From a virus, in IMG/VR virus record IMGVR_UViG_3300032782_000001, positions 1 to 52,403 of that record: a stretch of DNA of 52,403 bases. One strand, written 5' to 3'. A model generated the notes under the pieces. It worked only from the letters and a program-made list of their open reading frames with translations, was not told the origin of the DNA and did no database searches. Below, one piece after another: positions 118 through 45,016 of this stretch. How positions within the stretch are numbered: the first letter of the stretch is position 1; the number at the start of each line of letters is the position of its first letter. The position numbers were made by a program, and so were the translations under genes.

Positions 118-165
118 GGTCGTCGCCTCCGTCCGCCAATACGACGGACGGAGGCGAATTTCCGA
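118..165 (-). promoter_or_regulatory. conserved upstream cassette, palindromic variant
   Basis: minus-strand reading GGAAATTCGCCTCCGTCCGTCGTATTGGCGGACGGAGGCGACGACC-ATG; 13-bp inverted repeat pairs the SD with an upstream CCTCC arm. Confidence 0.5.
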
Positions 166-402
166 TCACCCGTCGTCTTGCGCGTCCGCGGTCGCCTCTT
201 CTTCCGTGTCGAAGGGACCGTTCGGCGTCCCGTCAGGCACGCACCCGGGGAAGCAGGCCCACCAGTACCAGCCTGCAGCGAGCTTCTCGCCGTCTTCGGC
301 CTCCAGCTCACCTTCCGGGGCGTAGAAGACCTCGGCGTTCGGCAGAGCCGTCTCTTCGGTCTCACGGCTCTTGTCGGTGTAAATCTGCGGCATTGTCGTC
401 AC
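166..402 (-). CDS. small acidic hypothetical protein (78 aa)
   Basis: ORF track; GGAGGTGACGACA-ATG RBS directly upstream. Confidence 0.6.
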   Translation of the reverse strand: MTTMPQIYTDKSRETEETALPNAEVFYAPEGELEAEDGEKLAAGWYWWACFPGCVPDGTPNGPFDTEEEATADAQDDG

Positions 403-443
403 CTCCGATCTAGAGTACGACCGGAGGTGACGAACTTACGGCC
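403..443 (-). promoter_or_regulatory. conserved upstream cassette, palindromic variant
   Basis: GTCGTCACCTCCG..GAGTACGAC..CGGAGGTGACGAAC inverted repeat around a CGTAC/CGTAT core; CGTAAGTTCG box on the distal side. Confidence 0.55.
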
Positions 444-704
444 TTACGGCACCTGCCAAGTCCCGTCGCCTTCGTAGTAGAAGACAGACGCGCCGCTCGG
501 CAGCTCGACGAACGGGCAGTAACCGCCGCGGTCTGACCCTTCTGGGTGTTCGTCCACGTAGCCCTTGCACCCTTCCGGCAAGGGTACGTCCTGGTCTTCG
601 ACCCAGCCCTCCCCGCGGGCCACTTCCTTCGTCAAAGTCACCACGCCCTTGTGGACAGACGGGGTGCAGCCTTCGAGGTACTTGAGAAGCTCAGTCCTGT
701 TCAC
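444..704 (-). CDS. hypothetical protein (86 aa)
   Basis: ORF track; GTG start 5 nt after GGAGGTGA. Confidence 0.6.
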   Translation of the reverse strand: MNRTELLKYLEGCTPSVHKGVVTLTKEVARGEGWVEDQDVPLPEGCKGYVDEHPEGSDRGGYCPFVELPSGASVFYYEGDGTWQVP

Positions 705-750
705 GTCGTCACCTCCGCACCTGAGTACGCGCGGAGGTGACGAACTTGCC
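705..750 (-). promoter_or_regulatory. conserved upstream cassette, palindromic variant
   Basis: CGTCGTCACCTCCGCACCTGAGTACGCGCGGAGGTGACGAACTTGCCC. Confidence 0.5.
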
Positions 751-757
751 CTTTGTT

Positions 758-1012
758 TTACTTGGACTGGACAACCGTCACTTGGAACTCCGATCCGTCC
801 GTGAGACGGAGGACGAATCCGGCGTTGTTCGTGAGGACCATGGCCTCCTCGAAGGAGCGAAGGTCTGCACCGACCAGCACAGCCCCATCGTCCAAGCCGG
901 ACTCCACCTCGGTCGAAAGACCGATGGTCTCCTGAAGCAGAGTCGCCATTTCCATCTCGTCCATCGTAGCGATGACCTCACCGATCCGGGCCGTGTGTAC
1001 GCTCTTCGCCAT
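758..1012 (-). CDS. hypothetical protein (84 aa)
   Basis: ORF track 758..1072 trimmed to Met21, which follows GGAGGTGACGACG; the longer N-terminus is a read-through of the cassette. Confidence 0.6.
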   Translation of the reverse strand: MAKSVHTARIGEVIATMDEMEMATLLQETIGLSTEVESGLDDGAVLVGADLRSFEEAMVLTNNAGFVLRLTDGSEFQVTVVQSK

Positions 1013-1450
1013 CGTCGTCACCTCCGACTCTGGATACGACGATGGCCGGCGGATTTTCGCTCCGCCGGCCATCGAGACTGCACACCCGCGCTTGCCGGTT
1101 CTCCGGCTCTCAGCAAAGTTTGGAGGCGGCCACCAGCCGCCCGCTTTGACCCTTCCTCATCGGCCTCCTCACTTTCTGCGCCAGACCTCCGGTCTGGGAG
1201 AGCGTTGACCTCACCTATCCACGCCGTGCGAGTTGTCTCTTAACTGGGGGCCGGAGAACGGCAGCTTCGATCTCCCACCGCTAGCTGACGATCTTACCCC
1301 ACCCGGCGGCCGCAAGCCGCGCGATATAACGCAATCGGACTGCCTTTCCTTCGTAGGAGGTTGGTTTCTAGGACCTGTATGCCGCCGCGCGGTGGCCGGC
1401 CACCGCGCTCTCCCCGCTTGCGATCTCCGGTACGCCGCGCGTCGCCGAAC

Positions 1451-1585
1451 TTACGACCGGAGCAACGAGCCGATCGCCTCGCGCGTCTCCAGACAGATCG
1501 CCAGCTGCGCCTCGGTGATCTTGCCCTCGTCGTACCACGCGAGGATCTTCTTCACGCTGCTGAACCGCACGCTCTTCTTCGCCAT
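1451..1585 (-). CDS. small hypothetical protein (44 aa, MAKKSVRFSSVKKILAWYDEGKITEAQLAICLE...)
   Basis: hand-translated; GGAGGTGAGACCG-ATG RBS; below the ORF-track size cut-off; coordinates approximate. Confidence 0.4.
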   Translation of the reverse strand: MAKKSVRFSSVKKILAWYDEGKITEAQLAICLETREAIGSLLRS

Positions 1586-1640
1586 CGGTCTCACCTCCAC
1601 AACCGAATACGACGCGGATCGCCAGACTTACGACCGCGCC
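1586..1640 (-). promoter_or_regulatory. conserved upstream cassette
   Basis: minus reading GTCGTAAGTCTGGCGATCCGCGTCGTATTCGGTTGTGGAGGTGAGACCG-ATG. Confidence 0.5.
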
Positions 1641-1643
1641 CAC

Positions 1644-1689: not shown

Positions 1690-1749
1690 GCCCAGCGGGC
1701 GCCGCAAATCCGACAGGGCCCGTCGTATCCAGGGACGGAGGTGATGACG
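1690..1749 (+). promoter_or_regulatory. conserved upstream cassette
   Basis: GCCGCAAATCCGACAGGGCCCGTCGTATCCAGGGACGGAGGTGATGACG-ATG. Confidence 0.5.
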
Positions 1750-2115
1750 ATGACGACGAACAACGCAGCGAGCTACCCGTTCCTCAGCAAGGCCCAGATC
1801 AAGGATCGCCTGGCCCAAGACCCGGACTTCGTCCGGGAGTGCGCCCTGATCATGCAGGATCGCCAGACGGCCTACGAGCAGGCCACCCTCACCACGAAGG
1901 ACCGCAACCGCAAGGGCTGGATGAGCAGCCACGCCGTCAACGGCGGCAAGCTCACCGCCAAGCTCCGCCAGGGAGAGGCCCTCGAAGCCGAGGAGTGGCT
2001 CAAGCTCCAGGAGATGGTCTCGCACTACGGCAAGCAGCTCGCGAGCCACTTCCGGGAGGCGGCCATCGAAGCCAACCCGACCCTCAAGGCCGCGGCCGCG
2101 ATCTTCGGCGTCTGA
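1750..2115 (+). CDS. hypothetical protein (about 122 aa)
   Basis: ORF track 1741..2115; start ambiguous among three in-frame ATGs within or after GGAGGTGATGACGATG, and 1750 gives canonical spacing. Confidence 0.55.
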   Translation: MTTNNAASYPFLSKAQIKDRLAQDPDFVRECALIMQDRQTAYEQATLTTKDRNRKGWMSSHAVNGGKLTAKLRQGEALEAEEWLKLQEMVSHYGKQLASHFREAAIEANPTLKAAAAIFGV

Positions 2116-2164: not shown

Positions 2165-2214
2165 GCGGCCGCAAATCTGATGCGGCCGCGCGTATTGACA
2201 TTCGGAGGGTAACG
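2165..2214 (+). promoter_or_regulatory. conserved upstream cassette
   Basis: CCGCAAATCTGATGCGGCCGCGCGTATTGACATTCGGAGGGTAACG-ATG. Confidence 0.5.
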
Positions 2215-2463
2215 ATGATCGACACGAGCTGCACGCTCACCGTGGGCGACTTGCTGGAAGCATTGAAGGCCGGTCGCGTGACCCCGGACACCTGCCTGGG
2301 ATACGCCGTTCGAGGGTTCCCGTCCGATGGCGTGGAGTCCATCTCTGCCATCAGCTTCCACAAATACGAGGACGGGACCCGGGTCCTCATCTTCTTGAAC
2401 GACGTTAACTCCCCACAAGTCGCTCGCGACGTCGTACCGCTGGAAGCCGAAGATTTGACCTGA
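2215..2463 (+). CDS. hypothetical protein (82 aa)
   Basis: ORF track; cassette upstream; hairpin AAGGCCGG..CCGGCCTT downstream at 2469-2501. Confidence 0.55.
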   Translation: MIDTSCTLTVGDLLEALKAGRVTPDTCLGYAVRGFPSDGVESISAISFHKYEDGTRVLIFLNDVNSPQVARDVVPLEAEDLT

Positions 2464-2816: not shown

Positions 2817-3272
2817 TCAAGATGGGACGACGAAATTTCCGCTTGAAAGAGCTGCCTGAAGGGACTTCATCATCACTTCCGGCGGGACGACACGCACGTC
2901 TCCCTCGACATCCGCGGCCATCCCAACCAGATCTTCCCAAGTGGCCGGAGGCGTCTCACCCTCCTCCAAATCCCACCCGACTTGGTCCCAAACCCCCTCC
3001 ATGTCGTCGTAAAGACCCATGGAGCCCCTGGTCCCACCCCCATGGATTTTCTCGTCAGCCGCTTCCACCGCGGCAGCCATCTCCGGAGTCCCTCCACCCG
3101 GAACTTTGAAAGCCTGCCATCCCCACGGCCCACTAACCGCCACATACGCGTCGCTCATAGCCGCCAGTACGCGGCGCAGCGCCGCACTTACGCGGACGCG
3201 ACTCGGTTTTTGACTGCGGTCAATTTTATCCGCAATTTGGCGCAAAGAAGCAGCAACCCGAGAAGGCGTCAT
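2817..3272 (-). CDS. hypothetical protein, paralog of 14874..15284 (shared N-terminal 40 aa PSRVAASLRxIADKIDRSxxPSRVRVS)
   Basis: ORF track trimmed to Met6 by comparison with the paralog; the shared 5' region contains an in-frame copy of the cassette at about 3150-3205. Confidence 0.6.
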   Translation of the reverse strand: MTPSRVAASLRQIADKIDRSQKPSRVRVSAALRRVLAAMSDAYVAVSGPWGWQAFKVPGGGTPEMAAAVEAADEKIHGGGTRGSMGLYDDMEGVWDQVGWDLEEGETPPATWEDLVGMAADVEGDVRVVPPEVMMKSLQAALSSGNFVVPS

Positions 3273-4245: not shown

Positions 4246-4473
4246 TTACGACGTTTCGTAGACCTTCAAACTCTCCCACGCCGGGATAGCAAACTGCTCG
4301 TCGTAGTCCCGCTCCGTGTCGTTCATGTCCTGCCGCCAGTCGATCTCGTGCTGATAGCAGGACTTGCAAACGATGGCATTGGAATCGCCACCCGTCGGCA
4401 GAAGCCGGACTTCACCTTCGACGCAGATCCCGAGCTGCTTGTCACAGCGAGGATTGTTGTAATGAGTCGCCAA
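4246..4473 (-). CDS. Cys-rich small protein (75 aa, TTG start)
   Basis: ORF track 4246..4650 trimmed to Leu60 (TTG), which follows GGAGGTGACGAAC; the residues upstream (PEVTNL) are the cassette read-through. Confidence 0.5.
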   Translation of the reverse strand: MATHYNNPRCDKQLGICVEGEVRLLPTGGDSNAIVCKSCYQHEIDWRQDMNDTERDYDEQFAIPAWESLKVYETS

Positions 4474-4520
4474 GTTCGTCACCTCCGGATCCAAATACGA
4501 CCGGAGGTGACGAACTTGCG
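4474..4520 (-). promoter_or_regulatory. conserved upstream cassette, palindromic variant (17-bp arms AAGTTCGTCACCTCCGG / CCGGAGGTGACGAACTT)
   Basis: read directly; central TCGTATTTGGAT. Confidence 0.55.
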
Positions 4521-4528
4521 CCGTCGCG

Positions 4529-4999
4529 TCAGTCCAGACGATCGTCCTGACCACAACGAGGGTCGCACTGGCCCGGAGGCGCCCCGCACTCCTCGCAATC
4601 GTCCGAGTGGTCTTCCGGGTCGGAATTGTCATCGCAGATGGGAGTCCCACCCAAGGCTTCGAGAACCGCCGTCACCGTCTTGCAAACGGACGTCTCGGCC
4701 GTCCGAGGAGAACAGAGGGTCTCGCAAATTTTCCAAGACCGGACGTATTGCCAACCGTCGACGTAAGGAAGGGACAATCCCTCCCAACGGTCGTGACGCC
4801 AAGGGATCTCCCCGTGGTTCTCCTTGTCGATGTGCTTCGCCAACAGGTCGCAGACGACCCGGGCAAGCTCCTCCGAAGCACACAGGACCAAATGGTCCGT
4901 GTCCGGAGCCTCCCCGTCGTAATCGCCGTAGATCGCCCAGCAAGGCACGGCCAGAATCGGCTTGGCCAACTCGTAGATCTTCTCGAGGTCCTCAGTCAC
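4529..4999 (-). CDS. hypothetical protein, Cys/Asp-rich C-terminus (156 aa)
   Basis: ORF track; GTG start after GGAGGTGACGAC; cassette at 5000-5050. Confidence 0.6.
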   Translation of the reverse strand: MTEDLEKIYELAKPILAVPCWAIYGDYDGEAPDTDHLVLCASEELARVVCDLLAKHIDKENHGEIPWRHDRWEGLSLPYVDGWQYVRSWKICETLCSPRTAETSVCKTVTAVLEALGGTPICDDNSDPEDHSDDCEECGAPPGQCDPRCGQDDRLD

Positions 5000-5062
5000 G
5001 TCGTCACCTCCGCGATCGGATACGACGCGGCCCGGCGGATTTCTGCGATCGCGCCGAGTTCT

Positions 5063-5359
5063 TCAAAAACTCCCGGCGGTTGAGCTGCGGTCGAACGACA
5101 GGATCATGTCGTTCCCGAAGAGTTTCTCGGCCACCTTCCGGTTCTCCGTCGGAGTTCCTTCTTCCAAGGGATGGACTTTGGAAGCCGGCACCCGGACGTT
5201 CTCGTACATGGAGTGCCACTTCACGACGTACGTGACCCTTCCAATCCCCGGCTTCCGATTCGGGTCGAGCTCGTTGGAGACCACCTCGCCTTCCACGAGC
5301 CGTCCCTTGAGGACGAAACCGACCTTCGAACCCTTCGGAAGAACCTTGTAACCACTCAT
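5063..5359 (-). CDS. hypothetical protein (98 aa)
   Basis: ORF track; AGGAGGTGATGGCCGG-ATG; cassette at 5360-5410. Confidence 0.6.
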   Translation of the reverse strand: MSGYKVLPKGSKVGFVLKGRLVEGEVVSNELDPNRKPGIGRVTYVVKWHSMYENVRVPASKVHPLEEGTPTENRKVAEKLFGNDMILSFDRSSTAGSF

Positions 5360-5437
5360 CCGGCCATCACCTCCTGCCCCCGATACGCCGCGGAACCGCC
5401 AGATTTGCGCCCCGGCTTCAAAGGGGACCTTTAAAGA

Positions 5438-5638: not shown

Positions 5639-5654
5639 AAGCTAAAACGTAAAT

Positions 5655-5692
5655 TCGAACCGGTCAGACGTATCCGGAATCAACAAACATAA
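5655..5692 (+). promoter_or_regulatory. orphan plus-orientation copy of the cassette boxes (CGTAAATTCG..GACGTATCCGG) without SD
   Basis: read directly; followed by G-rich degenerate repeats (GGAAGTTCCGG-like) antisense to the minus ORF 5716..6276. Confidence 0.35.
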
Positions 5693-6276: not shown

Positions 6277-6432
6277 TTTCCTACATAATGAACAGGGATT
6301 CTGTTTTATGGTCTGTCGGGTCTATGTTAAGGCGTGTGGCCCTAGGGGTGTTGTTTTGAAATTTCCTTGTTGGACCGCCAAACTGGATTCCAACTTGTTA
6401 AAGGTGATCTTCCCCCTAGTCACCTTTCATTC

Positions 6433-6693
6433 TCAGCTCGACATGATGTTCCATACGACGAATTCGTTGAAGGAGATTTCACGGATGTCGGGTGGAAGAA
6501 TGGTTCCGTCGTCCATTCTTTTGTAGGTTTTGGAGACTCGTTGCCATTCTTCGGCGCAGGTTGGGCAGCAGCTGAAGGTGTTTTTGGTGGTCAGGCCTTG
6601 GAAGTAGACGGAGGTTGGGTTGGGGCAGGGTCCTTTGAAGGACAGGCAGGATTCTGGGTCCCAGGCGAAGTCTTTGGGGTTTCGGACGGTCAT
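6433..6693 (-). CDS. Cys-rich small protein, tail ...NEFVVWNIMSS (tail family)
   Basis: ORF track; ATGA overlap with upstream gene. Confidence 0.55.
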   Translation of the reverse strand: MTVRNPKDFAWDPESCLSFKGPCPNPTSVYFQGLTTKNTFSCCPTCAEEWQRVSKTYKRMDDGTILPPDIREISFNEFVVWNIMSS

Positions 6694-6947: not shown

Positions 6948-7159
6948 GAGTCCATCACCTGTCGGCAGATGAATTCTTCTCGGGAGATTTCAATCGGCTC
7001 CATCGGAGCCCCGCGGATTTCCATCGGAAGCAGTCCGTTTAGGCAACATTGGTTACAAGTTCCCCATACGAACATTTTTCCTTCTTGGCGTTCGTACTGG
7101 AAGAATCGAGAGGCTTCGTTCTGGCAGTCGTCTATGCAGGGGATGGGTTCCGTTTTCAC
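6944..7159 (-). CDS. Cys-rich small protein, tail ...REEFICRQVMDS (tail family)
   Basis: ORF track. Confidence 0.55.
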   Translation of the reverse strand: MKTEPIPCIDDCQNEASRFFQYERQEGKMFVWGTCNQCCLNGLLPMEIRGAPMEPIEISREEFICRQVMDS

Positions 7160-37661: not shown

Positions 37662-37665
37662 GGAG

Positions 37666-37972: not shown

Positions 37973-38443
37973 CTAGGATTCGTGGACGTCCCGACATTTA
38001 TTGAGTTGACACTCCGTCCCATGTCCTGGGTTGGCATGACGGTTCTTGTTCTCAGCGTGTCGCCCACACCGAGGGCAAATACCGCTTTTGTTGATGCCCC
38101 TCTTCCCGAACCGACGGTAACTCGTCGACGGAACATTCGGCCTCGTTGCAGGTGGAGGGGACTGCCGGCGAATGATATAGGTCGTTCCAACCAATCGGAG
38201 GTGCTCGTAATGCACCAATTCTTCGATGGTGGCTTCAGCGTCATTCATGCTTGCCGTTGGCCAAGCTTGCTGGAGAATGAAGAACACTTGCTCCGTGGAG
38301 ATCTTCTCGATGTGACTCCATCGCGAATCCCCGAATGTGGAGAATCCAAGACCCTTGGGTCGAGCGTGCTTGCCGAATGGATCGACCGTGCACATGATGA
38401 GAGCCGGCATGTCCGTTCGATGCGACTCCTTTCGAAATTCCAT
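37973..38443 (-). CDS. zinc-ribbon protein (CX2CX18CX4C), tail ...KCRDVHES; tandem paralog of 38445..38945
   Basis: shared C-terminus GICPRCG..NKNRHAN.GHGTEC.LN; ORF track. Confidence 0.55.
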   Translation of the reverse strand: MEFRKESHRTDMPALIMCTVDPFGKHARPKGLGFSTFGDSRWSHIEKISTEQVFFILQQAWPTASMNDAEATIEELVHYEHLRLVGTTYIIRRQSPPPATRPNVPSTSYRRFGKRGINKSGICPRCGRHAENKNRHANPGHGTECQLNKCRDVHES

Positions 38444-38444
38444 A

Positions 38445-38945
38445 CTAGCTCTCCATCACCTGCCTAACGCGATTCAATTTGCACTCCGTCCCATGCCCCG
38501 AATTTGCATGACGGTTCTTGTTTTTGGAATATTCACCGCATCGGGGACAAATTCCGGCGTGCGGATTTTGACTGTTGTATCGAGATGGGATCAACGGAGT
38601 TTCTGGGAGATCCGGGAGACTGAAGGCCCGGAAACTGTCTTCTCGAAGGAACCCCTCTGCAAGAAGGATTTCGACGGTGGACTGGACTTCCTCTTGGGAG
38701 ATCTTCTCCCATTTCTCTTCCAAAACCTTGGTGATTTCGGCGAGAGTGACCTTCGAAAGCCGAGCTCGTCGCATCCTTTCATCTTCACGCCTGAGATTTT
38801 CTTCCCAGGGCAGGCGCATTTTGTTTGTCTCTCGATACCTGGCACGACGCTGCGCCGCGGTCGGCCGGAAGGTTACACGAACGTGCTCCGGCATGTCAAA
38901 CTGATGCTGAAGTTTGCGAAAAGCCACAACATCCTCACAATACAC
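38445..38945 (-). CDS. zinc-ribbon protein, tail ...NRVRQVMES; tandem paralog of 37973..38443
   Basis: ORF track; GTG start right after the hairpin CCCGGA..TCCGGG at about 38950-38971. Confidence 0.5.
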   Translation of the reverse strand: MYCEDVVAFRKLQHQFDMPEHVRVTFRPTAAQRRARYRETNKMRLPWEENLRREDERMRRARLSKVTLAEITKVLEEKWEKISQEEVQSTVEILLAEGFLREDSFRAFSLPDLPETPLIPSRYNSQNPHAGICPRCGEYSKNKNRHANSGHGTECKLNRVRQVMES

Positions 38946-38988
38946 GAGAGCCCGGAAGATTTGGCCTCCGGGCTCTCGGGAAGTGGAA

Positions 38989-40059
38989 CTACTTGGTGGA
39001 CTTCACGGTCACCCGGACGCAACCCTTCGGCGTCTTGGCGAAATAGTCCTTGTAGTGCCGAAGGAGCAGGTTCCAAATGATCCGCTTGTGCGTCTCTTGC
39101 TCGCCGGTCGTCGGGTCACGACCCATCAGAGGGCGCTGCTCCTCCCGCACCTCACTCCCGATGTCCACCCGGACAATCTTGTGGAGGGGAACGACCGTCG
39201 CGCGCAGCGGCTTGCTGAAGAAGGCACCCTGGAGGTACTTCAGGGAGTTCGTGAACTGCCACTTCCAATCGGCCTTCTTGCACCAGATCTCGACCGAGCC
39301 GGGGTATTTCTCCGACTCCTTGATCTCGACGACGCAGAGGCTCTCGCGCAGGAGGGAGGCCAGCATCCTGTAGCCGAGGCTCTCGATGGCGTCGGTGCAC
39401 GCCTTGTGGACCTCGCTCTTGCGATTGAGGCTGCAGACGCGGACCAGACCGTTGACCATGCCCCGAATGCCCTGCGGCTTGTAATTCTGGACCAGGAACT
39501 CCACGAGTTCCGGGTACTCCGCCAGATCGATCATGGCCTGCATCTCGTCGCCGTCCTTCGGCTCCTCGAAGTAGCCCTTCTTGCTGCAGATCGGCCCGAG
39601 ACCGCGCTCCACGGACTCGGAGTCCGTCAGCTTCAGCGCGCAGTGGGCGCAATGCGTGCACACGCCCTCGAGGATGAGCTGCCCATGGCGCTGCTTCTGC
39701 TTCAGGACGCCGCCGACGATGCCGTTCTGGGGCAGGTTCAACTGCGCCATCTGCGAGACCAGGACGGGCTTGGGGCCGCTTTCGGGCGCGGGCTCCTCCT
39801 TCGCGGGGTTGCCATCGTTCGACTCGGACGGGTACTCGTCCCGAGCCGAATCCGGCTCGGAATCCATCTCGGCCTGGTAAGCCGCTCGCTCTTGCTCGGC
39901 CTCCTGGCGACCGAATTCGTTCTTCATCGCGATCCAATCTTGCGCTGCTTGATCCATCGTGTCACCTCCATCGTCCGATACGCCGGGAGGCGCCGAATTT
40001 GCGGCTCGCCTGTCGGCTTCTTCTTCAATGCGAAGGAGGAATTCCTTGAGTTTGCTCAT
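38989..40059 (-). CDS. hypothetical Cys/His-containing protein; two candidate starts (40059 coupled by ATGA overlap, or 39957 after the in-frame cassette)
   Basis: ORF track; the cassette (GCAAATTCG..CGTATCGG..GGAGGTGACACG-ATG) lies in-frame at 39958-40015 and encodes ...AANSAPPGVSDDGGDT-M. Confidence 0.55.
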   Translation of the reverse strand: MSKLKEFLLRIEEEADRRAANSAPPGVSDDGGDTMDQAAQDWIAMKNEFGRQEAEQERAAYQAEMDSEPDSARDEYPSESNDGNPAKEEPAPESGPKPVLVSQMAQLNLPQNGIVGGVLKQKQRHGQLILEGVCTHCAHCALKLTDSESVERGLGPICSKKGYFEEPKDGDEMQAMIDLAEYPELVEFLVQNYKPQGIRGMVNGLVRVCSLNRKSEVHKACTDAIESLGYRMLASLLRESLCVVEIKESEKYPGSVEIWCKKADWKWQFTNSLKYLQGAFFSKPLRATVVPLHKIVRVDIGSEVREEQRPLMGRDPTTGEQETHKRIIWNLLLRHYKDYFAKTPKGCVRVTVKSTK

Positions 40060-40745
40060 GACGACATCACTACTTCCGTAAGGGCTTCACGTAGGATGGT
40101 GACCATCTCATCGAAGTCACCTCCGTGTTGGAATGCGTGAATTGCGCCTTCCTTCAAGACGCTGTATGCACGTTTGGTCTGATGCTTGGAGAATTTCTTG
40201 TTCAGGCCGCCGTTTTGAATGAATTGGAATGCTTCGGATACGGCAGCATCAATTGCGTTTGGCTTTCCTGCAAGTAGAACTTCCAGATCCATCAGGAAAC
40301 GAACTTCCCAAGAGACATGGTGAATGTACACAGTCAAACCTAACTTGGATTCAACATGATTTTTCTCAACTGCTGCAGTCTTTAGGAATTGAGCAATCAA
40401 GTCATTCTTTTGGAAGAAGCTCTTAGCGAATGACTTCATGGCCTCTTCTTTCATGAGGCCAATAGTCCGGGGCTCACGTCGGCCTTCGTACGGACAGAAA
40501 TGAAGTGTGTACTTGACGTCCCCTACTTTCACCTGTACGTCTGCTTTATTTCCTGTAGGATTGGGACGCGCTCGACCAGGAACCGCTTTCATGAGTGCAG
40601 TCGCAGCCGATTGCACGGAATCTGCCCAAAGAGGCTTCCTAAAGACGGATTGGATGACAAACTCCGCCGCCCGTTCATAATCAGAAGCCGGCGGGGAGGT
40701 ATGTTGGTAAGTCCGGAGATAACAAGCAGGTTTCGTGCTGTTCAT
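40056..40745 (-). CDS. hypothetical protein (229 aa), tail ...LTEVVMSS (tail family)
   Basis: ORF track; GGAGGGTAAGGA-ATG; cassette at 40746-40805 is about 94% identical over about 50 nt to the one at 39958-40015. Confidence 0.6.
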   Translation of the reverse strand: MNSTKPACYLRTYQHTSPPASDYERAAEFVIQSVFRKPLWADSVQSAATALMKAVPGRARPNPTGNKADVQVKVGDVKYTLHFCPYEGRREPRTIGLMKEEAMKSFAKSFFQKNDLIAQFLKTAAVEKNHVESKLGLTVYIHHVSWEVRFLMDLEVLLAGKPNAIDAAVSEAFQFIQNGGLNKKFSKHQTKRAYSVLKEGAIHAFQHGGDFDEMVTILREALTEVVMSS

Positions 40746-40892
40746 TCCTTACCCTCCATCCGGTCTATACGCCGGGAGGCGCCGGATTTGCGGCTCGCCT
40801 GTTGGACTCTTCAATTCGAATTCTTTGAATTTCCCCAAAGCGGTGTACGCTGGGATTAGCTCATCTGCGAAAATTTCAAGTCAAAGGCGATC

Positions 40893-41723
40893 ATGGCGAA
40901 GATTGACGACATTTTGAAAGAAATTCAAAAAAATTTCGATAAAAGTATTTTTGGACCCCCTGAACCTGGATCGCTCCGACTGGGAAGGAAACCAATGGTT
41001 TCTACCTACGAAGCCATGCAACCATTGGTTCAAGTTCGGTCTAACTGGGATGCCTTTGTCAGTTTTATTCGGAAAGCAGAAGTAGTCGTCAGGGCACCCA
41101 AGTTTCTCAGGAAATCTAAAGGTATTTATTATGGCCACATCAACGTTGGAACCGGACGAGGGATTTTTCCTCAAGTGTTCTTGAAAGTCGGGACTAATGA
41201 AATCCAAGTCCCAACTCCAACTAGCCTTGACACATCCTTGATGCGTTCCGATAAATTGGTTGTCTACCAACTACCGGGGATTGGATGGCTTCATGGATGC
41301 AAGCTCCAGTTGGGTCACATTCCGGAAGGTGTCAGCGGCGACCATAAACAGAAGATTTGCGAACTTCTCGTTGAAGATTGTGGGGAGGAGAAATATGCGT
41401 CCTTGAAGGCGCGGATTCAGTTCGAATGGGATGCGGTTCAAAAGAATGCCGATGAGCTAATGAAGGCCCACCTTTCAGGCAGTCAGTCTCATAAAGAACG
41501 GGATAGCTTCGTAACGAAGCTATCCAACCTTTTAGCAAAAAGTCCAGATCTAATTGAAGTCGACCCTGACGTTGTATTGACCATCTTCCAAATGGATCCG
41601 AAGGAATTGGAAAAGATGATCGGATTTATGAAGCGGAATGTGGCAGATATTGACGTGATCGTAGAAGAGGATGTGAAGAAAGCCCAAGACTTGGCGAAAG
41701 TGCAATCTGTCATGGAGAGTTGA
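40893..41723 (+). CDS. hypothetical protein (276 aa), AT-richer gene, tail ...KVQSVMES (tail family)
   Basis: ORF track; no cassette; palindromic AATTCGAATT in the divergent intergenic region. Confidence 0.55.
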   Translation: MAKIDDILKEIQKNFDKSIFGPPEPGSLRLGRKPMVSTYEAMQPLVQVRSNWDAFVSFIRKAEVVVRAPKFLRKSKGIYYGHINVGTGRGIFPQVFLKVGTNEIQVPTPTSLDTSLMRSDKLVVYQLPGIGWLHGCKLQLGHIPEGVSGDHKQKICELLVEDCGEEKYASLKARIQFEWDAVQKNADELMKAHLSGSQSHKERDSFVTKLSNLLAKSPDLIEVDPDVVLTIFQMDPKELEKMIGFMKRNVADIDVIVEEDVKKAQDLAKVQSVMES

Positions 41724-41788
41724 AGATAATATGACAACACGGCGCAAATTCATCTGATCACGGCGTATCGGCCGGTGGAGGTGACGCC

Positions 41789-42097
41789 ATGATGAATTCC
41801 GAGCAGATGGTGAACACGTTGAAGAACGTCCCTGAGGGAGCGCTCCTCTTCGTCAGTTACATCGCCGGCCGTGAGCCCACCGAGCGCGCCATCCAGGAGG
41901 CGAAGCCTCACACGGAGAACCCTGCGCGCAGTCGACGCCACTTCGTCGGCACCCTTTCGCGCGTCTGGACTGCCCGCAACGGTGACCCCATTCTCACTAT
42001 TCACGCACACAACCGCAACACGGGCGACAAAGCCGGGGGTTACCGGTCTTTCAATCCGAGCCTCGGTCAACTGCTCGCCGTGCAGGTTCTCTCATGA
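41789..42097 (+). CDS. hypothetical protein (102 aa)
   Basis: ORF track; GGAGGTGACGCC-ATG; cassette at 41738-41788. Confidence 0.6.
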   Translation: MMNSEQMVNTLKNVPEGALLFVSYIAGREPTERAIQEAKPHTENPARSRRHFVGTLSRVWTARNGDPILTIHAHNRNTGDKAGGYRSFNPSLGQLLAVQVLS

Positions 42098-42480
42098 AAT
42101 TCATCCGCCAACAGGTCAGTGATAAGGGAATCGTTACGGACTTCTACTGGAAGACGTGGCGGCATCACAAGATCATCGTGGCATTCGAGTATGAGCTCTC
42201 ATGCGATGCCCACTGGGATGGCGACGAACCTATTCCTGATCATTACGAGTGCTACGATATCCTCGTGAAGGCCAGGTTCCAAGGTCACGAAGGAACTGCC
42301 AGTCTCTGCAATAGTTGGATTGATCCACGCACGGAAGGTCGGCGCGGCTCCAACTATCTCTATACTGTGGCCTGCGACCTCCTGGAGGAAGCTATCCACG
42401 AAATGGGAAAAAAGCTCATCCAGAGCGGTCACGTCTGCAAGAACAAACTCTGCATCGTCGAGTCCGTTCACGAATCTTAA
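42094..42480 (+). CDS. Cys-rich hypothetical protein (128 aa), tail ...CIVESVHES
   Basis: ORF track; ATGA overlap; 7-bp hairpin downstream. Confidence 0.55.
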   Translation: MKFIRQQVSDKGIVTDFYWKTWRHHKIIVAFEYELSCDAHWDGDEPIPDHYECYDILVKARFQGHEGTASLCNSWIDPRTEGRRGSNYLYTVACDLLEEAIHEMGKKLIQSGHVCKNKLCIVESVHES

Positions 42481-42627
42481 TAGGACCCGGCCAGTAGAGT
42501 CCTTCATGGGACTCTGGACGATCTATTGTCATACTGTATGTCGGGTTGACAAAACAAACTTTGGCGAAGAGGTGGAAGAACCACGTCAACGCAGCCAAGT
42601 TGTCCAAAGGACGATGGCATTTCCCGA

Positions 42628-42852
42628 ATGCCATTCGAAAATATGGAGATGTGGCGTTCTCGCATGAAGTGCTGCTTCACGCTTTGTCCCCGAGATGCTT
42701 GTCTGGTCTTTCATGACTCAAATCATGAGTGGCCTATGTGCAAAGAGCACGAGGAAGAAGGAGAAAAGGACCTGAAAGCTCAATTTGAGGACAATCCTAT
42801 TCAGGTTATTTCCGGTCCTGAATTTCTTGTTTGGGAAGTCATGGAGTCATGA
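42628..42852 (+). CDS. Cys-rich small protein, tail ...PEFLVWEVMES (tail family)
   Basis: ORF track. Confidence 0.55.
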   Translation: MPFENMEMWRSRMKCCFTLCPRDACLVFHDSNHEWPMCKEHEEEGEKDLKAQFEDNPIQVISGPEFLVWEVMES

Positions 42853-42853
42853 A

Positions 42854-43063
42854 GTGAAATGCGGATTCGGAACCGAGAAGGACCCGGAATTCTCTTGCCC
42901 AAAAGCAGCCACTGTCGGGTTGCAATCTCGAACGCATAGAAATCACATTTTTATTCGTTGCAAAGAGCACTCCCTGGAACTTATCCTTCGGGGATTGTAC
43001 GACGTCATCGACCTGGAAGATGCCGAAAATTTCACTGTCGTCTATGAGATCATGAAGTCCTGA
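42854..43063 (+). CDS. Cys-rich small protein (GTG start), tail ...FTVVYEIMKS (tail family)
   Basis: ORF track 42785 trimmed to the GTG just after the upstream stop. Confidence 0.45.
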   Translation: MKCGFGTEKDPEFSCPKAATVGLQSRTHRNHIFIRCKEHSLELILRGLYDVIDLEDAENFTVVYEIMKS

Positions 43064-43139
43064 TCTGTTGTAAATTCTGCAAGGCCCGTCGGATCCGCAA
43101 ATTCGGCGGGCCGCGACGTATCTGGATCTGGAGGTGACT

Positions 43140-44084
43140 GTGCGCGATCTATCGAGGCTCAGGTATTTGCTTAGGTGGGCCCAACTCAATAAGACCTTCG
43201 AAAGGGTCCCGGCCAGTGGAATCCATGTTCCGCTTCGCGACAGTGTGACCCGGTATCAAATCCCAGTGGCCGGGGCCGAATTCCGTCGTGTGAACAATCC
43301 GCACGGGAATCCCGTCGCCAAGCTCCTCGTGGGCTCTCAGGAGATCCAGATCGGAGCCGAGGGATTGGACGACGCCGAGAAGCTGGAAATTGCCCTGGAA
43401 ACTCTCTTCCAGGAGAGGCCGCCAGTGTGGGAATCTCCAGATCTTTCGGACGCCATTCAGCAGGCGTTGTCCCACGCTCGACGAGATGACGTCAAATCCC
43501 GTTTCAATAAGGTCGTCACCGGTCCCATGGACACCGATGAATATACCCATTGGATGAATTTCACCCTTGGTTTGGCTGAGGGGGAGTGTTCGAAAGAATC
43601 TCGAACGGAAATGGTCCTGGGCCATTACATCACCACGACTTATATCTTCAAAGGAACGGAAGCTCAAGCCATTTCCAGCTTGGAAGGACTCCGCGACGTC
43701 AAGCGAATGCCGACTCCGCGTCGTGTGCTCGTCAAAATGGTGCATCTCCGGATGTCGAAGATGCGCAAGGAAGTGGAAGAAGAGAACAATCGTCGGAGGA
43801 AGCAAAGGGCCGAAGACGCATTGCAAGCCAGCCTTCCTCCCAATGATCCGAACAAGCAGAAGAATTACCACCCTAGTGGTAAACCCGACGTCATTATTGG
43901 AGATCTGGATAACCGCGCCAATTGCAAGATGTCAGCATCCAAAGCCAACTATGACGCTGGGTACTGGACCATCCGGCGGGAAGCTGAAAACCTGATGAAA
44001 TGTCTGCAGCGAGAAGACATTGACGATAGCATTATTCACGATGCTTGGAAATTGTATCTCGTCGGCGATGTGATGCAATCATAA
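43140..44084 (+). CDS. hypothetical protein (about 314 aa), tail ...LVGDVMQS (tail family)
   Basis: ORF track; cassette at 43085-43139; start GTG ambiguous (43134 or 43140). Confidence 0.6.
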   Translation: MRDLSRLRYLLRWAQLNKTFERVPASGIHVPLRDSVTRYQIPVAGAEFRRVNNPHGNPVAKLLVGSQEIQIGAEGLDDAEKLEIALETLFQERPPVWESPDLSDAIQQALSHARRDDVKSRFNKVVTGPMDTDEYTHWMNFTLGLAEGECSKESRTEMVLGHYITTTYIFKGTEAQAISSLEGLRDVKRMPTPRRVLVKMVHLRMSKMRKEVEEENNRRRKQRAEDALQASLPPNDPNKQKNYHPSGKPDVIIGDLDNRANCKMSASKANYDAGYWTIRREAENLMKCLQREDIDDSIIHDAWKLYLVGDVMQS

Positions 44085-44085
44085 C

Positions 44086-44112
44086 TGGCAGGGGTTTACT
44101 AAACCCCTGCCA
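44086..44112. repeat. TGGCAGGGG hairpin family member (TGGCAGGGGTTTA-C-TAAACCCCTGCCA)
   Basis: read directly; intergenic. Confidence 0.7.
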
Positions 44113-44128
44113 CATATCTGGAGAAATT

Positions 44129-44581
44129 ATGTACGGGAGTGGCTCTTCCAATGAGCAGATGAATACGTTGCTGGCCGAGCGCATCTTCAAGTGGTTGCTC
44201 GACCGTGGTGATTTCATTGAATGGCTGGACCGCCAGCTCATGGACCAAGGATTGGAACTCTTCGCTCAATTGGACTCTCTCACCGCCATGGATGTTGGCC
44301 GAGTCCTTCTCGGCATGCCCGAATGGATTAAAACGAGGTACCGGACCGTTGGAGGTGGTGGCTCCGACGTCCCAACTTTCTTCACGGAGCGCGTGAAGGA
44401 AGAAGTGGCGAAAGATTCCTTCCTCGAGTCATGTGTTGGTAAGTCCGTCCCTGTGACCGCCGCCTGTTTGTCGATGGTCGGTGAGGCTGTCAAACGGACG
44501 AGGTTCTACACGGAGAATGCAACCGAGATGCGACGTCGGATCCGCCATACTAAGGTTGTCCGCCACGTCATGGACTCATGA
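44129..44581 (+). CDS. hypothetical protein (150 aa), tail ...KVVRHVMDS (tail family)
   Basis: ORF track 44045 trimmed to Met29 after TGGAGAAATT. Confidence 0.55.
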   Translation: MYGSGSSNEQMNTLLAERIFKWLLDRGDFIEWLDRQLMDQGLELFAQLDSLTAMDVGRVLLGMPEWIKTRYRTVGGGGSDVPTFFTERVKEEVAKDSFLESCVGKSVPVTAACLSMVGEAVKRTRFYTENATEMRRRIRHTKVVRHVMDS

Positions 44582-44919
44582 GCGTACTTTCCCTCGTGAG
44601 CAATCCATTCCAAAGCCTCGACGAGGCCTGTACGCGAGTTCTTGAACACCTATTTCCGGAGAACAACCGGACTGAAATCGTCATGGACTTATCCTATGAT
44701 GAGCAGGAACTCCTCAAGAGTGGCTGGGTCCGAGGTCTCAACGATTGGTGGCGTCATCCTGATGCTCCACTGGATGAGAGCATGAGTCTCTTCTTTGCGA
44801 AGAAGGTGCAAAGGAAGATCGCTCAGTACGACATGCGGAAAGACCAGGAATGGCGGAAAGACTACACGTCCTACCGCATGGCCGTGTCTTCAGTCCACTT
44901 CGACACCTTTACTGACTAA
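44578..44919 (+). CDS. hypothetical protein (113 aa)
   Basis: ORF track; ATGA overlap. Confidence 0.55.
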   Translation: MSVLSLVSNPFQSLDEACTRVLEHLFPENNRTEIVMDLSYDEQELLKSGWVRGLNDWWRHPDAPLDESMSLFFAKKVQRKIAQYDMRKDQEWRKDYTSYRMAVSSVHFDTFTD

Positions 44920-45016
44920 ACACCCCGCTTTCAAACAGACCGAAAGGCCCCGATAGAGCATGCCGTGGCGGCGTAAATTCCCATCGATCGGCCGTACCGA
45001 TCGGTGGAGGTGACAC

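What the first reader, a model, noticed from the sequence alone, without database searches (positions are those of the whole stretch)
118..45016. An approximately 45-bp promoter-plus-RBS cassette repeated at least 35 times: GNAA[AG]TTCG, about 14 nt, CGTCGTAT[TC]CG, about 6 nt, GGAGGTGA, about 4 nt, ATG
Copies lie upstream of operon-leading genes on both strands:
- Minus strand: about 118, 403, 705, 1013, 1586, 3340, 4474, 5000, 5360, 8651, 9951, 10725, 11515, 12470, 13230, 14326, 14788, 16958, 17473, 20039, 20847, 21162, 39958 and 40746.
- Plus strand: about 1690, 2165, 23062, 24125, 25840, 29850, 32970, 33968, 34320, 35247, 41738, 43085 and 44955.

The two boxes are separated by 14-17 nt like a sigma-70-family -35/-10 pair, and the CGTC/CGTA box resembles ECF-type -10 elements. 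The perfect GGAGGTGA then leaves a leader of only about 15-20 nt. No sigma factor or RNA polymerase gene is visible in this window.

The cassette is so stereotyped that ORF-finder N-termini repeatedly read through it, giving the recurrent artefact peptide PEVTNL. Two adjacent copies (39958-40015 and 40746-40805) are about 94% identical over 50 nt.
Basis: seen in the sequence. Interest (0 to 1): 0.8.

Follow-up and report, generated by a model that had tools for sequence, protein, structure and literature searches.

The report
Repeated jumbo-phage promoter-plus-RBS cassette
A roughly 50-base control cassette (a two-box promoter that appears to start the RNA exactly at a perfect ribosome-binding site) is repeated about 60 times in one 51-kb block of an uncultivated giant phage and its relatives. 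It is a real phage-specific promoter class whose reader is still unidentified.

Summary

**What is there**
- 35 of the 37 listed sites are genuine.
- About 45 copies lie in the window, and 59-68 in window plus flanks. Shuffled sequence gives 0-5.
- The window belongs to a phage contig of at least 337 kb.

**Architecture** (very rigid)
- Box 1: CGyAAATyCG.
- Fixed 11-nt spacer.
- Box 2: CGTAYY.
- Exactly 7 nt.
- GGAGGTGAcga, then ATG 12-13 nt after the first G.

**Why it looks like a promoter**
- Copies without an SD place an ATG exactly where GGAGG normally starts (7 of 24; no other offset exceeds 2). That implies leaderless mRNAs and puts the start site on the first G of the SD.
- On that numbering box 1 is -34..-25 and box 2 is -13..-8. 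G-12/T-11 matches ECF-type -10 elements.
- At orthologous genes in diverged relatives the boxes persist while spacers and flanks drift.
- Sigma-70-type promoters and intrinsic terminators are not enriched.
- All copies sit within window coordinates -6316..44975 of about 119 kb examined.

**Extras**
- A stem-loop often overlaps box 1.
- About 17% of spacers carry an anti-SD (CCTCC).
- Gene modules swap between cassettes. This resembles the PeSL cassettes of T4-like phages, but with a non-sigma-70 consensus.

**Limits**
- No RNA polymerase or complete sigma factor was found.
- No start site has been measured.

The parts
115..164 (-). Cassette with SD; inferred TSS 130; gene start 117. The spacer CCTCCGTCCG pairs with CGGACGGAGG.
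391..440 (-). Cassette with SD; TSS 406; gene start 393. Spacer carries the anti-SD TCACCTCCG.
702..750 (-). Cassette with SD; TSS 716; GTG start 704. Spacer carries an anti-SD.
1010..1059 (-). Cassette with SD; TSS 1025; gene start 1012. A stem-loop has box 1 in its loop.
1421..1455 (-). Two-box promoter with no SD and no ORF; TSS 1421. It points into the 1075-1421 gap.
1583..1632 (-). Cassette with SD; TSS 1598; gene start 1585.
1703..1752 (+). Cassette with SD; TSS 1737; gene start 1750. Divergent from the copy at 1583-1632.
2170..2217 (+). Cassette with SD (GGAGGGTA); TSS 2204; gene start 2215.
3156..3192 (-). Leaderless copy: ATG at 3158, exactly 7 nt after CGTACT; 113-aa ORF.
4471..4520 (-). 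Cassette with SD; TSS 4486; TTG start 4473. A 15-bp anti-SD:SD stem is possible.
4723..4757 (+). Orphan two-box site, antisense to gene 4529-4999; no SD or ORF.
4997..5045 (-). Cassette with SD; TSS 5011; GTG start 4999.
5357..5409 (-). Cassette with SD. This is the only copy whose spacer is 1 nt longer. Gene start 5359.
5648..5682 (+). Orphan two-box site with no SD or ORF.
8648..8694 (-). Cassette with SD (GGAGGCGA); gene start 8650.
9948..9987 (-). Two-box promoter; TSS 9953. ATG at 9950 follows a 3-nt leader; 220-aa gene.
10722..10770 (-). Cassette with SD; gene start 10724.
12467..12516 (-). Cassette with SD; gene start 12469.
13227..13276 (-). Cassette with SD; gene start 13229.
14323..14372 (-). 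Cassette with SD; gene start 14325.
14785..14832 (-). Cassette with SD (GGAGGCGA); gene start 14787. A stem-loop surrounds box 1.
15168..15204 (-). Leaderless copy: ATG at 15170, 7 nt after CGTACT; 98-aa ORF.
16955..17003 (-). Cassette with SD; gene start 16957. Spacer carries an anti-SD.
17470..17515 (-). Cassette with SD; gene start 17472. A 9-bp stem surrounds box 1.
18812..18848 (-). Weaker leaderless copy (15.6 bits): ATG at 18814, 7 nt after CGTAGT. Its ortholog in L011 is SD-led.
20036..20082 (-). Cassette with SD (GGAGGCAA); gene start 20038.
20844..20893 (-). Cassette with SD; gene start 20846.
21159..21208 (-). Cassette with SD; gene start 21161.
21713..21762 (+). Weak copy (13 bits) with SD; gene start 21760.
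23086..23134 (+). Cassette with SD at offset 8; gene start 23132.
24127..24177 (+). Cassette with SD at offset 9; gene start 24175.
25845..25894 (+). Cassette with SD upstream of the MoxR-type AAA ATPase (start 25892). The orthologous copy in L031 keeps the boxes and has a different spacer-discriminator stem.
27410..27468 (+). Weak two-box site (11 bits) with a longer leader; gene start 27466.
29854..29902 (+). Cassette with SD upstream of the DUF2201/VWA protein (start 29900). The copy is conserved in L031.
31786..31820 (+). Two-box promoter with no adjacent SD; the leader would be longer.
32973..33020 (+). Cassette with a weaker box 1 (16.5 bits) and an SD; gene start 33018.
33970..34018 (+). 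Cassette with SD; gene start 34013 or 34016.
34323..34371 (+). Cassette with SD; gene start 34369.
35250..35297 (+). Cassette with SD; gene start 35295.
39955..40003 (-). Cassette with SD upstream of the DUF6011 protein (start 39957). CCTCC in the spacer.
40743..40792 (-). Cassette with SD (GGAGGGTA); gene start 40745. Near-duplicate of the copy at 39955-40003.
41743..41791 (+). Cassette with SD; gene start 41789.
43096..43142 (+). Cassette with SD; GTG start 43140. A second, partial box 1 lies 27 nt upstream (43072).
44972..45019 (+). Last cassette, upstream of the ATP-dependent DNA ligase (GTG 45017). A long cassette-free run of overlapping genes follows.

Best explanation
Each copy is a complete expression cassette of an uncultivated jumbo phage (contig of at least 337 kb).

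**Proposed mechanism**
- It is a class-specific bipartite promoter: box 1 CGyAAATyCG at -34..-25 and box 2 CGTAYY at -13..-8, with invariant spacing.
- The transcript starts exactly at the first G of a perfect Shine-Dalgarno sequence. The mRNA therefore begins 5'-GGAGGUGAcgaNN-AUG, a 12-13 nt leader.
- In a minority of copies the transcript starts at the A of the start codon, giving a leaderless mRNA.
- The promoter is not a housekeeping sigma-70 type. Its geometry best fits a dedicated sigma-like specificity factor of the ECF/group-4 kind: a rigid short spacer, G-12/T-11 in box 2, and an A-rich core in box 1. That factor is probably phage-encoded and lies elsewhere in the genome.
- About 60 cassettes drive mostly small genes without database relatives, plus a few DNA-metabolism genes, on both strands of one 51-kb block. 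That pattern suggests one temporal class.

**Secondary features**
- A GC-rich stem-loop often overlaps box 1. It probably attenuates or terminates read-through from the upstream gene.
- About 17% of window-phage copies (11 of 63) carry an anti-SD in the promoter spacer. It would hide the SD only in read-through transcripts.
- The repeated cassettes act as exchange points for gene modules.

**Shown versus inferred**
- Shown: the repeat itself, its geometry, its placement, its conservation, and the absence of sigma-70 signals.
- Inferred: promoter activity, the start-site position, the kind of reader, and the roles of the hairpins.
For: **Abundance and placement**
- 68 hits above 8 bits against 0-5 in simulations.
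- 49 of 59 copies are followed by an SD and a start codon opening an ORF of 44-495 aa on the same strand.
- All copies lie within -6316..44975 of about 119 kb examined.

**Rigid geometry**
- 58 of 59 copies have identical box spacing.
- 45 of 49 have GGAGG exactly 7 nt after box 2.

**Separable modules and the inferred start site**
- In 125 non-redundant copies from this phage and its relatives, the position 7 nt after box 2 holds GGAG in 93 and ATG in 7.
- Among the 24 copies with no SD nearby, ATG occurs 7 times at offset 7 and at most twice at any other offset.
- Those ATGs open ORFs of 98-114 aa in the cases scored.
- An orthologous gene pair switches between the leaderless form (window 18845) and the SD-led form (L011) while keeping the boxes.

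**Phylogenetic footprint**
- 14 orthologous gene pairs with 36-80% protein identity keep CG.AAAT and CGTA while flanks and spacers diverge.
- More distant relatives (L160) keep box 2, the spacing and the leaderless geometry, with box 1 reading CGTAGCTC.

**No competing signal**
- Sigma-70-type promoters: 4 found against 6.7 expected, and 12 against 12.3.
- Intrinsic terminators: 22 against 22.7, and 17 against 19.5.

**Not a cellular regulon**
- Only single chance matches occur in 185,579 species genomes.

**Hairpins and module exchange**
- The stem around box 1 is stronger than in permuted pairings (z about 5) in two independent sets.
- CCTCC occurs in the spacer of 11 of 63 copies against 1.4 expected.
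- L074 and the window are 99.7% identical up to the ATGGA after one cassette. They are then unrelated until about 10 nt before the next cassette.
Against: - No transcription start site, RNA or protein data exist for this phage. The start site is inferred from geometry only.
- No RNA polymerase and no sigma factor with a region 2 was found in about 119 kb. At least two thirds of the genome could not be read.
- The A-rich core of box 1 lies about 2 bp closer to box 2 than the AAC motif does in textbook ECF promoters. Box 1 is also 10 bp long. This comparison rests on my own recollection of ECF promoters.
- An SD at the extreme 5' end of an mRNA is unusual.
- The pairing between spacer and discriminator is only weakly above permuted controls once the constant SD is excluded (z 1.4-1.8).
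- Five to seven strong two-box copies have no obvious gene downstream or lie antisense to a gene (1452, 4726, 5651, -3194, -2660).
Confidence: 0.65

Rival explanations
1. The sites are promoters with the same inferred start site, but they are read by a phage-encoded RNA polymerase that needs no sigma factor. Candidates are a virion-packaged or non-virion multisubunit enzyme, as in phiKZ and AR9, or a single-subunit enzyme.
For: - The genome is jumbo-sized: 337-436 kb contigs.
- In jumbo phages that encode RNA polymerases, a conserved motif can be found upstream of presumed early operons (PMC7598289).
- The cassette-led genes are mostly small genes without database relatives, as is typical of early genes.
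- No sigma factor was found.
Against: - Known virion-polymerase early motifs are single AT-rich blocks of about 10 nt centred near -10. Late promoters are tiny motifs at the start site.
- Here there are two boxes, reaching to -34, with a variable GC-rich spacer.
- No beta/beta'-like or T7-like polymerase gene appears in about 119 kb. Such genes are very divergent, and most of the genome is unread.
Confidence: 0.2
2. The boxes are binding sites for a phage transcription factor (activator or repressor) rather than the core promoter. One candidate is the neighbouring protein with an Xre-type HTH, a sigma-A-like region 4 and a KOW motif. It could act like a combined T4 MotA/AsiA (sigma appropriation) or like a mycobacteriophage stoperator repressor.
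For: - A 511-aa protein sits about 1.4 kb beyond the left edge of the cassette block. It is not itself preceded by a cassette.
- It has two predicted DNA-binding domains plus a KOW motif.
- Its family is syntenic in a related phage that also carries cassettes.
- Box 1 is centred at about -30, like a MotA box (my own knowledge).
Against: - Box 2 lacks the A-11/T-7 signature needed if host sigma-A region 2 still read the -10 element (logo).
- No other core promoter signal is present at these genes.
- The exact coupling of box 2 to the leaderless ATG argues that box 2 itself positions the start site.
- The homolog P0003 keeps the sigma-A-type recognition residues RERIRQ, which predicts TTGACA-like binding rather than box 1.
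- The link rests on adjacency only.
Confidence: 0.1
3. The cassette acts at the RNA level. It would be a processing site, a translational operator or an SD-sequestering switch inside long polycistronic transcripts, and not a promoter.
For: - Stem-loops overlap box 1, and some copies carry an anti-SD:SD stem.
- The SD is part of the repeat.
Against: - The conserved bases do not form the stems. The stems are built from the variable flanks, in shifting registers.
- Hairpins are present in only about a third of copies.
- Copies occur at divergent gene pairs where no upstream transcript exists (for example 1583-1632 against 1703-1752).
- The SD-less and leaderless copies make no sense as translational operators.
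Confidence: 0.03
4. The repeats are mainly recombination or mobile sequences with no regulatory role.
For: Gene modules are exchanged between cassettes. The copies at 39955-40003 and 40743-40792 are near-duplicates.
Against: - Strict orientation relative to genes, a fixed distance to start codons, and base-specific conservation confined to two short boxes across diverged orthologous sites are hallmarks of expression signals.
- Recombination is better seen as a by-product, as for PeSLs.
Confidence: 0.02

Closest known systems
PeSL (promoter-early stem-loop) cassettes of T4-like phages (PMC2839356, PMC4122927)
   Same: - Short composite intergenic cassettes repeated many times between small genes without database relatives.
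- Each combines a promoter, a stem-loop placed between or over the promoter boxes, and an SD plus start codon at the 3' end.
- They serve as crossover points for swapping gene modules.
   Different: - PeSL promoters match the host sigma-70 consensus with an AT-rich upstream region. Here the boxes are CGyAAATyCG and CGTAYY in GC-rich DNA.
- The spacing to the SD is fixed to the nucleotide.
- The phage is unrelated and jumbo-sized.
- Terminator activity of the stem-loops has not been tested here.
ECF (group 4) sigma-factor promoters, for example B. subtilis sigma-W TGAAAC-N16-CGTATA and E. coli sigma-E with G-12 T-11 C-10 (my own knowledge; the sigma-E -10 detail is quoted in PMC7598289)
   Same: - Bipartite, with a rigid spacer.
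- A CGTA/CGTC-type -10 element whose G and T fall at -12/-11 relative to the inferred start.
- An A-rich -35 core.
   Different: - The A-rich core lies about 2 bp closer to box 2.
- Box 1 is a 10-bp quasi-palindrome (CG...CG) that lacks the AAC motif.
- No ECF sigma gene has been found.
Early promoters of phiKZ/AR9-type jumbo phages, read by a virion RNA polymerase (PMC7598289)
   Same: A highly conserved motif that can be found by sequence analysis alone, present in dozens of copies upstream of presumed early operons of a jumbo phage.
   Different: - Those motifs are single AT-rich blocks of about 10 nt centred near -10.
- Here there are two GC-flanked boxes reaching to -34.
- No split beta/beta' genes were seen in the 119 kb read.
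Start-associated sequences (SAS/ESAS) of Cluster K mycobacteriophages (PMC3203893)
   Same: - A conserved SD-containing repeat immediately upstream of the start codons of non-structural genes, in one orientation.
- A second conserved element upstream in about half the cases.
- Confined to one part of the genome.
   Different: - SAS is a 13-bp unit 3-7 bp from the start codon, with 11-19 copies.
- ESAS is a pair of 17-bp inverted repeats thought to bind a protein.
- Neither has been shown to be a promoter.
- The sequences are unrelated to those here.
T4 lysozyme gene e and I-TevI: a late promoter lies inside a hairpin that hides the ribosome-binding site in early read-through transcripts (my own knowledge)
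   Same: In the anti-SD subset (for example 391-440, 702-750, 4471-4520, 16955-17003), the -10 box lies in the loop and the inferred start lies at the 5' end of the 3' arm. Only promoter-initiated RNA would therefore have a free SD.
   Different: - Only about 17% of copies have this feature.
- It is untested.
- The promoter type differs.

Membership tests
Housekeeping sigma-70/sigma-A promoter | TTGACA-like -35 and TATAAT-like -10 (A-11 and T-7), 16-18 bp apart | tested here: not met
   The logo shows CGyAAATyCG and CGTAYY, with no conserved T at the -7 equivalent. The consensus scan finds no enrichment: 4 against 6.7 expected, and 12 against 12.3.
ECF-type (group 4) sigma promoter | -10 element with CGT, G/T at -12/-11 relative to the start site | tested here: met
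   CGTA occupies -13..-10 when +1 is placed at the leaderless ATG or first G of the SD. The start site is inferred, not measured.
ECF-type (group 4) sigma promoter | -35 element with an AAC core about 16-17 bp upstream of CGT | tested here: not met
   The core is AAAT/AAGT. Only 14-15 bp separate it from CGT, and the distance is invariant.
ECF-type (group 4) sigma promoter | A cognate sigma factor with regions 2 and 4 encoded by the phage or host | tested here: inconclusive
   None was found in about 119 kb. More than 200 kb of the genome, and the host, could not be accessed.
PeSL-type composite regulatory cassette | Repeated intergenic unit combining a promoter, an overlapping stem-loop, an SD and a start codon, between small genes without database relatives | tested here: met
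   Architecture. A stem around box 1 occurs in about one third of copies, z about 5 against permutation. The median downstream ORF is about 100 aa.
PeSL-type composite regulatory cassette | The promoter part matches the host sigma-70 consensus (early promoter) | tested here: not met
PeSL-type composite regulatory cassette | Cassettes bound gene-module insertions, deletions or replacements between close relatives | tested here: met
   L074 against the window: the break points fall at the start codon after one cassette and about 10 nt before the next. This is a single clear case.
PeSL-type composite regulatory cassette | The stem-loop terminates or attenuates transcription | not testable with these tools
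   No U-tract follows the stems. Canonical terminators are not enriched.
phiKZ/AR9-type virion-RNAP early promoter | A single AT-rich conserved block of about 10 nt centred near -10 | tested here: not met
   The element is bipartite and GC-flanked. The definition is from PMC7598289.
T7-like single-subunit RNAP promoter | One contiguous conserved block of about 20 bp from about -17 to +6 | tested here: not met
   The conserved positions are split by an 11-nt variable spacer and extend to -34. The +1 region is dispensable in the leaderless copies.
N4 virion-RNAP hairpin promoter | A 5-7 bp stem with a 3-nt loop and conserved bases, centred near -11, present at every promoter | tested here: not met
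   Pairing between spacer and discriminator is weak and inconsistent (z 1.4-1.8 without the SD). Loops are 6-16 nt.
Cluster K SAS/ESAS | The 13-bp unit GGGATAGGAGCCC 3-7 bp upstream of the start codon | tested here: not met
   The sequence and spacing differ.

The most novel reading that the evidence does not exclude
The cassettes may define an undescribed phage transcription system.
- A polymerase-specificity factor unlike known sigma factors could read a 10-bp box at -30 and a CGTA box at -12. One possibility is the syntenic family carrying an Xre-type HTH plus a sigma-A region-4 mimic (with an added KOW motif in this phage). It would dock on the host beta-flap in place of sigma region 4.
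- The system would be built so that every transcript begins precisely at its ribosome-binding site or at its AUG.
- Anti-SD sequences in the spacer would act as built-in insulators that silence read-through translation.
Probability: 0.12. Interest if true: 0.75.

Novelty: new variant of a known kind. Interest (0 to 1): 0.5.

Why it matters
**Immediate use**
- It gives a nucleotide-precise, testable map of about 60 promoters, inferred start sites and translation starts for a clade of uncultivated giant phages. That clade is seen here in ENA, Logan and JGI metagenome assemblies.
- The map includes leaderless genes that gene callers miss or mis-start.
- It provides a search pattern that retrieves relatives directly from metagenomes.

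**If the start-site inference holds**
- This would be a natural minimal expression unit: about 35 bp of promoter plus a 12-nt leader.
- It would also be a rare case in which one promoter class is hard-wired to either an SD or an AUG at +1.

**Wider points**
- The cassettes extend the idea of mobile regulatory cassettes, which shuffle genes without database relatives, beyond T4-like phages and beyond host sigma-70 promoters.

Tried and rejected
**Searches for the cassette or relatives elsewhere**
- A strict cassette pattern found no match in IMG/VR viral contigs.
- Megablast of 24 kb found no match in GenBank phages. Protein hits were only distant, at about 24% identity to MoxR and VWA proteins of N4-like and other phages.
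- A scan of 185,579 species genomes gave 50 single matches, about the number I estimated for chance, and no locus with several copies. An apparent excess of Terricaulis and Caulobacterales hits contained no matrix-positive sites.

**RNA-level checks**
- Rfam found only one tRNA and nothing in 1000-1500.
- The 347-nt region downstream of promoter 1452(-) folds no better than shuffles (z -0.15). It is therefore not supported as a structured RNA.

**Alternative promoter readings**
- I considered reading box 1 as a sigma-70 -10 element (TAAATT) paired with the TTGAAG seen upstream of some copies. I rejected it because the TTGAAG spacing varies from 17 to 21 nt and no position upstream of -3 is conserved.
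- I considered a sigma-28-type reading (TAAA-N15-GCCGATAA). The position before AAAT is C as often as T and the spacing is 2 nt off. This is a comparison from memory only.

- Pfam and PHROG scans of 150 and 128 ORFs found no polymerase and no complete sigma factor.
- I extended the contig in both directions to about 119 kb in total, with the same negative result.
- The 511-aa candidate P0001 has no close homologs and no sigma match in the PDB by sequence.
- Its family profile matches only sigma-A region 4. It is therefore not a complete sigma factor.

**Hairpin test**
- Pairing between the spacer and the 7-nt discriminator alone is not convincingly above permutation.

Full report
**Context**

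The window is phage DNA. It carries one tRNA-Leu(UAA), an ATP-dependent DNA ligase, a MoxR-type AAA ATPase and a DUF2201/VWA protein. Most other genes are small and have no database relatives.

An exact protein look-up places the window on a 337,333-bp ENA metagenome contig. It also matches Logan and JGI assemblies, the longest 436 kb. This is therefore an uncultivated jumbo phage. It has no near relative among GenBank phages.

I joined 9.5 kb on each side to the window. I later read further out, so that about 119 kb was examined in all.

Yes.
- The box-2 core with up to one mismatch occurs 19 times against 2.3 expected.
- A 29-nt weight matrix spanning both boxes gives 68 hits above 8 bits in 71.5 kb. 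Simulated sequence gives 0-5. Most real hits score 20-35 bits, whereas the best simulated scores are mostly below 14.
The site near 3340 is not a cassette. The site near 11515 is degenerate.
- About ten more copies lie in the window and about twenty just to its left.
- The PEVTNL peptide is real. The two adjacent copies share 37 of 38 bases in the core, but identity over the full ~58 nt aligned is below the stated 94%.

**Anatomy**

Positions are numbered from the first A of AAAT. The logo shows:
- CGyAAATyCG at -3..6.
- A weakly C-rich spacer.
- CGTATy at 18-23.
- A pyrimidine at 30.
- GGAGGTGAcg at 31-40.
- The start codon at about 44-46.
- Nothing conserved further upstream.

The geometry is very rigid. 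The distance between the boxes is identical in 58 of 59 copies. GGAGG begins exactly 7 nt after the box-2 hexamer in 45 of 49 SD-bearing copies. 39 of the 54 GGAGGTGA octamers in the region sit at that position. Genes without a cassette have weaker SDs.

**The key result: boxes and SD are separable, which locates the start site**

Several strong two-box copies lack the SD. In these, an ATG that opens a real ORF sits exactly 7 nt after the hexamer, the offset where GGAGG otherwise begins.
- In the window and its left flank: 3189, 15201, 18845, -6003 and -6316.
- In relatives: L074, L067, L031, L077 and L160.
- Among 125 non-redundant copies that position holds GGAG in 93 and ATG in 7.
- Among the 24 copies with no SD nearby, ATG occurs 7 times at offset 7 and at most twice at any other offset.

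A leaderless mRNA needs its AUG at the 5' end. The simplest reading is therefore that transcription starts at this position. SD-bearing transcripts would then begin 5'-GGAGGUGA and have a 12-13 nt leader.

An orthologous gene is leaderless in the window (18845) and SD-led in L011. This shows that the promoter and the translation module are independent units sharing one +1.

On this numbering box 1 is -34..-25 and box 2 is -13..-8.

**Promoter or something else?**

Evidence that the boxes are a promoter:
- The cassettes are intergenic and point the same way as the following ORF on both strands. This includes back-to-back divergent pairs.
- Sigma-70-type promoters and intrinsic terminators are at or below chance. 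The cassette is therefore the only over-represented transcription-like signal.
- The conserved bases are not the paired ones, and hairpins are present in only a subset. That argues against an RNA motif.

A pattern scan of JGI metagenomes followed by matrix rescoring found many contigs with several copies.
- Some are near-identical to the window (L018, L073, L074).
- Many are diverged (L015, L022/L040/L066, L014/L037, L011, L031, L047, L077, L089, L030).

At 14 orthologous gene pairs with 36-80% protein identity, CG.AAAT and CGTA persist while spacers and flanks diverge.

A more distant relative found through a protein homolog (L160) keeps box 2, the spacing and the leaderless geometry, with box 1 reading CGTAGCTC.

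No cellular genome among 185,579 species carries multiple copies.

**Distribution**

All copies lie between window coordinates -6316 and 44975. None occur in about 32 kb to the left or about 36 kb to the right. The block has 56% G+C; the flanks have 48-53%. This pattern fits one temporal gene class.

**Who reads it?**

This is unresolved.
- Box 2 lacks the T-7 of a housekeeping -10 element.
- CGTA with G-12/T-11 and a rigid spacer is ECF-like. The sigma-E detail is quoted in PMC7598289; the rest is from my own knowledge.
- The A-rich core of box 1 sits about 2 bp closer than usual, and box 1 is 10 bp long.
- Known early motifs of jumbo-phage virion polymerases are single AT-rich blocks near -10. 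That does not fit.
- Pfam and PHROG scans of 278 ORFs, plus the precomputed domain annotations of the extended loci, found no polymerase and no sigma factor with a region 2.

The only transcription-like protein is a 511-aa protein about 1.4 kb left of the cassette block.
- It has a weak Sigma70_r4 hit and a KOW motif.
- Full HMMER finds a family with an N-terminal Xre-like HTH plus a region 4.
- The family profile matches region 4 of SigA/RpoD with E about 1e-24.
- A homolog is syntenic in L160, upstream of the same DEAD-box helicase.
- It lacks region 2, and P0003 keeps the sigma-A recognition residues.

**Secondary features**

- A GC-rich stem built from the variable flank and the first half of the spacer, with box 1 in or near the loop, occurs in about one third of copies. 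It exceeds permuted pairings in two independent sets (z about 5).
- Some copies show compensatory changes, for example GGGGCCGG/CCGGCCCC against GGGACCGG/CCGGTCCC.
- An anti-SD (CCTCC) is enriched in the spacer: 11 of 63 copies against 1.4 expected in this phage, and 6 of 62 against 1.6 in relatives.
- In copies such as 391-440, 702-750, 4471-4520 and 16955-17003 it gives a 12-15 bp stem, with box 2 in the loop and the inferred start at the base of the 3' arm. Only read-through RNA would have its SD hidden. This is the arrangement known for T4 gene e and I-TevI (my own knowledge).
- Pairing with the 7-nt discriminator alone is not convincing.

**Comparison with known systems**

The closest analogue is the PeSL cassette of T4-like phages. 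PeSLs combine a promoter, an overlapping stem-loop, an SD and a start codon between small genes without database relatives, and they mediate modular shuffling (PMC2839356, PMC4122927).

The shuffling aspect is seen here too. L074 and the window are 99.7% identical up to the ATGGA after one cassette. They then carry unrelated genes until about 10 nt before the next cassette.

The differences are the non-sigma-70 consensus, the nucleotide-exact coupling of start site and SD or AUG, and the unrelated jumbo phage.

Cluster K SAS/ESAS repeats are a looser analogue.

**Verdict**

This is a real and strongly non-random promoter-plus-RBS cassette.

It is a new variant of a known kind: phage class-specific promoters and PeSL-like cassettes.

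Noticed in passing
window 8796-8920: A perfect 43-bp inverted repeat (8796-8838 / 8852-8894, 13-nt loop) overlaps a second 33-bp inverted repeat (8836-8868 / 8888-8920). Two independent assemblies (ENA and Logan) both end here. It could be a replication origin, a strong structural block or a genome end; which is unknown.
   Followed up: partly
L001:16607-18142 (+), i.e. window coordinates -7734..-9269 on the minus strand, just outside the window: A 511-aa protein with an Xre-like HTH, a sigma-A-type region 4, a coiled coil and a KOW motif. Its family (about 30 distant members) lacks sigma region 2. It lies upstream of a DEAD-box helicase, and the same arrangement is found in a related phage contig (L160). 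It may mimic or decoy sigma region 4, or act as a transcription factor.
   Followed up: partly
window 1075-1421 (-): A strong two-box promoter (1421-1455) points into a 347-nt stretch with no ORF of 50 aa or more on that strand (ORF list), no Rfam match and no unusual folding stability. The product is unknown.
   Followed up: partly
window 4723-4757 (+), 5648-5682 (+); window coordinates -3194 (+) and -2660 (+), seen on the minus strand of L108 at 5461 and 4927: High-scoring two-box sites with no SD or ORF, lying antisense to or between predicted genes. They may drive antisense or small RNAs. The -3194(+) site stands back-to-back with the -3216(-) cassette.
   Followed up: no
window coordinates -6316..45000 against the flanks: The cassette block has 56% G+C; the flanks have 48-53%. 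Genes led by a cassette have third-codon-position G+C of 0.7-0.93, against roughly 0.45-0.6 for many others. The genome is compositionally heterogeneous.
   Followed up: partly
window 11515-11667 (-): tRNA-Leu (anticodon UAA) at 11591-11667 is followed directly by a degenerate cassette: box 1 is intact, the spacer is 3 nt shorter and there is no SD.
   Followed up: partly
window 2739-2777, 3370-3400, 44086-44112; also 38945-38978 and 49883-49918: Long, nearly perfect hairpins. Several share the arm TGGCAGGG(G). They may be a second repeated element or terminators.
   Followed up: no
L074:912-1157 against window coordinates -5759..-6303 (minus strand): Between two cassettes, one unrelated gene in L074 replaces two genes plus an internal cassette in the window phage. 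The sequence on one side is 99.7% identical.
   Followed up: yes
window 25892-27001 and 29900-31387 (+): A MoxR-type AAA ATPase and a DUF2201 metallopeptidase/VWA protein, a pairing also found in N4-like and other phages. Each has its own cassette, and both cassettes are conserved in the relative L031.
   Followed up: partly
window 45017-48009 and onward (+): After the last cassette (upstream of the DNA ligase) the genes form a long run with 4-nt overlapping stop/start codons and no cassettes. This looks like one long operon or a different promoter class.
   Followed up: no
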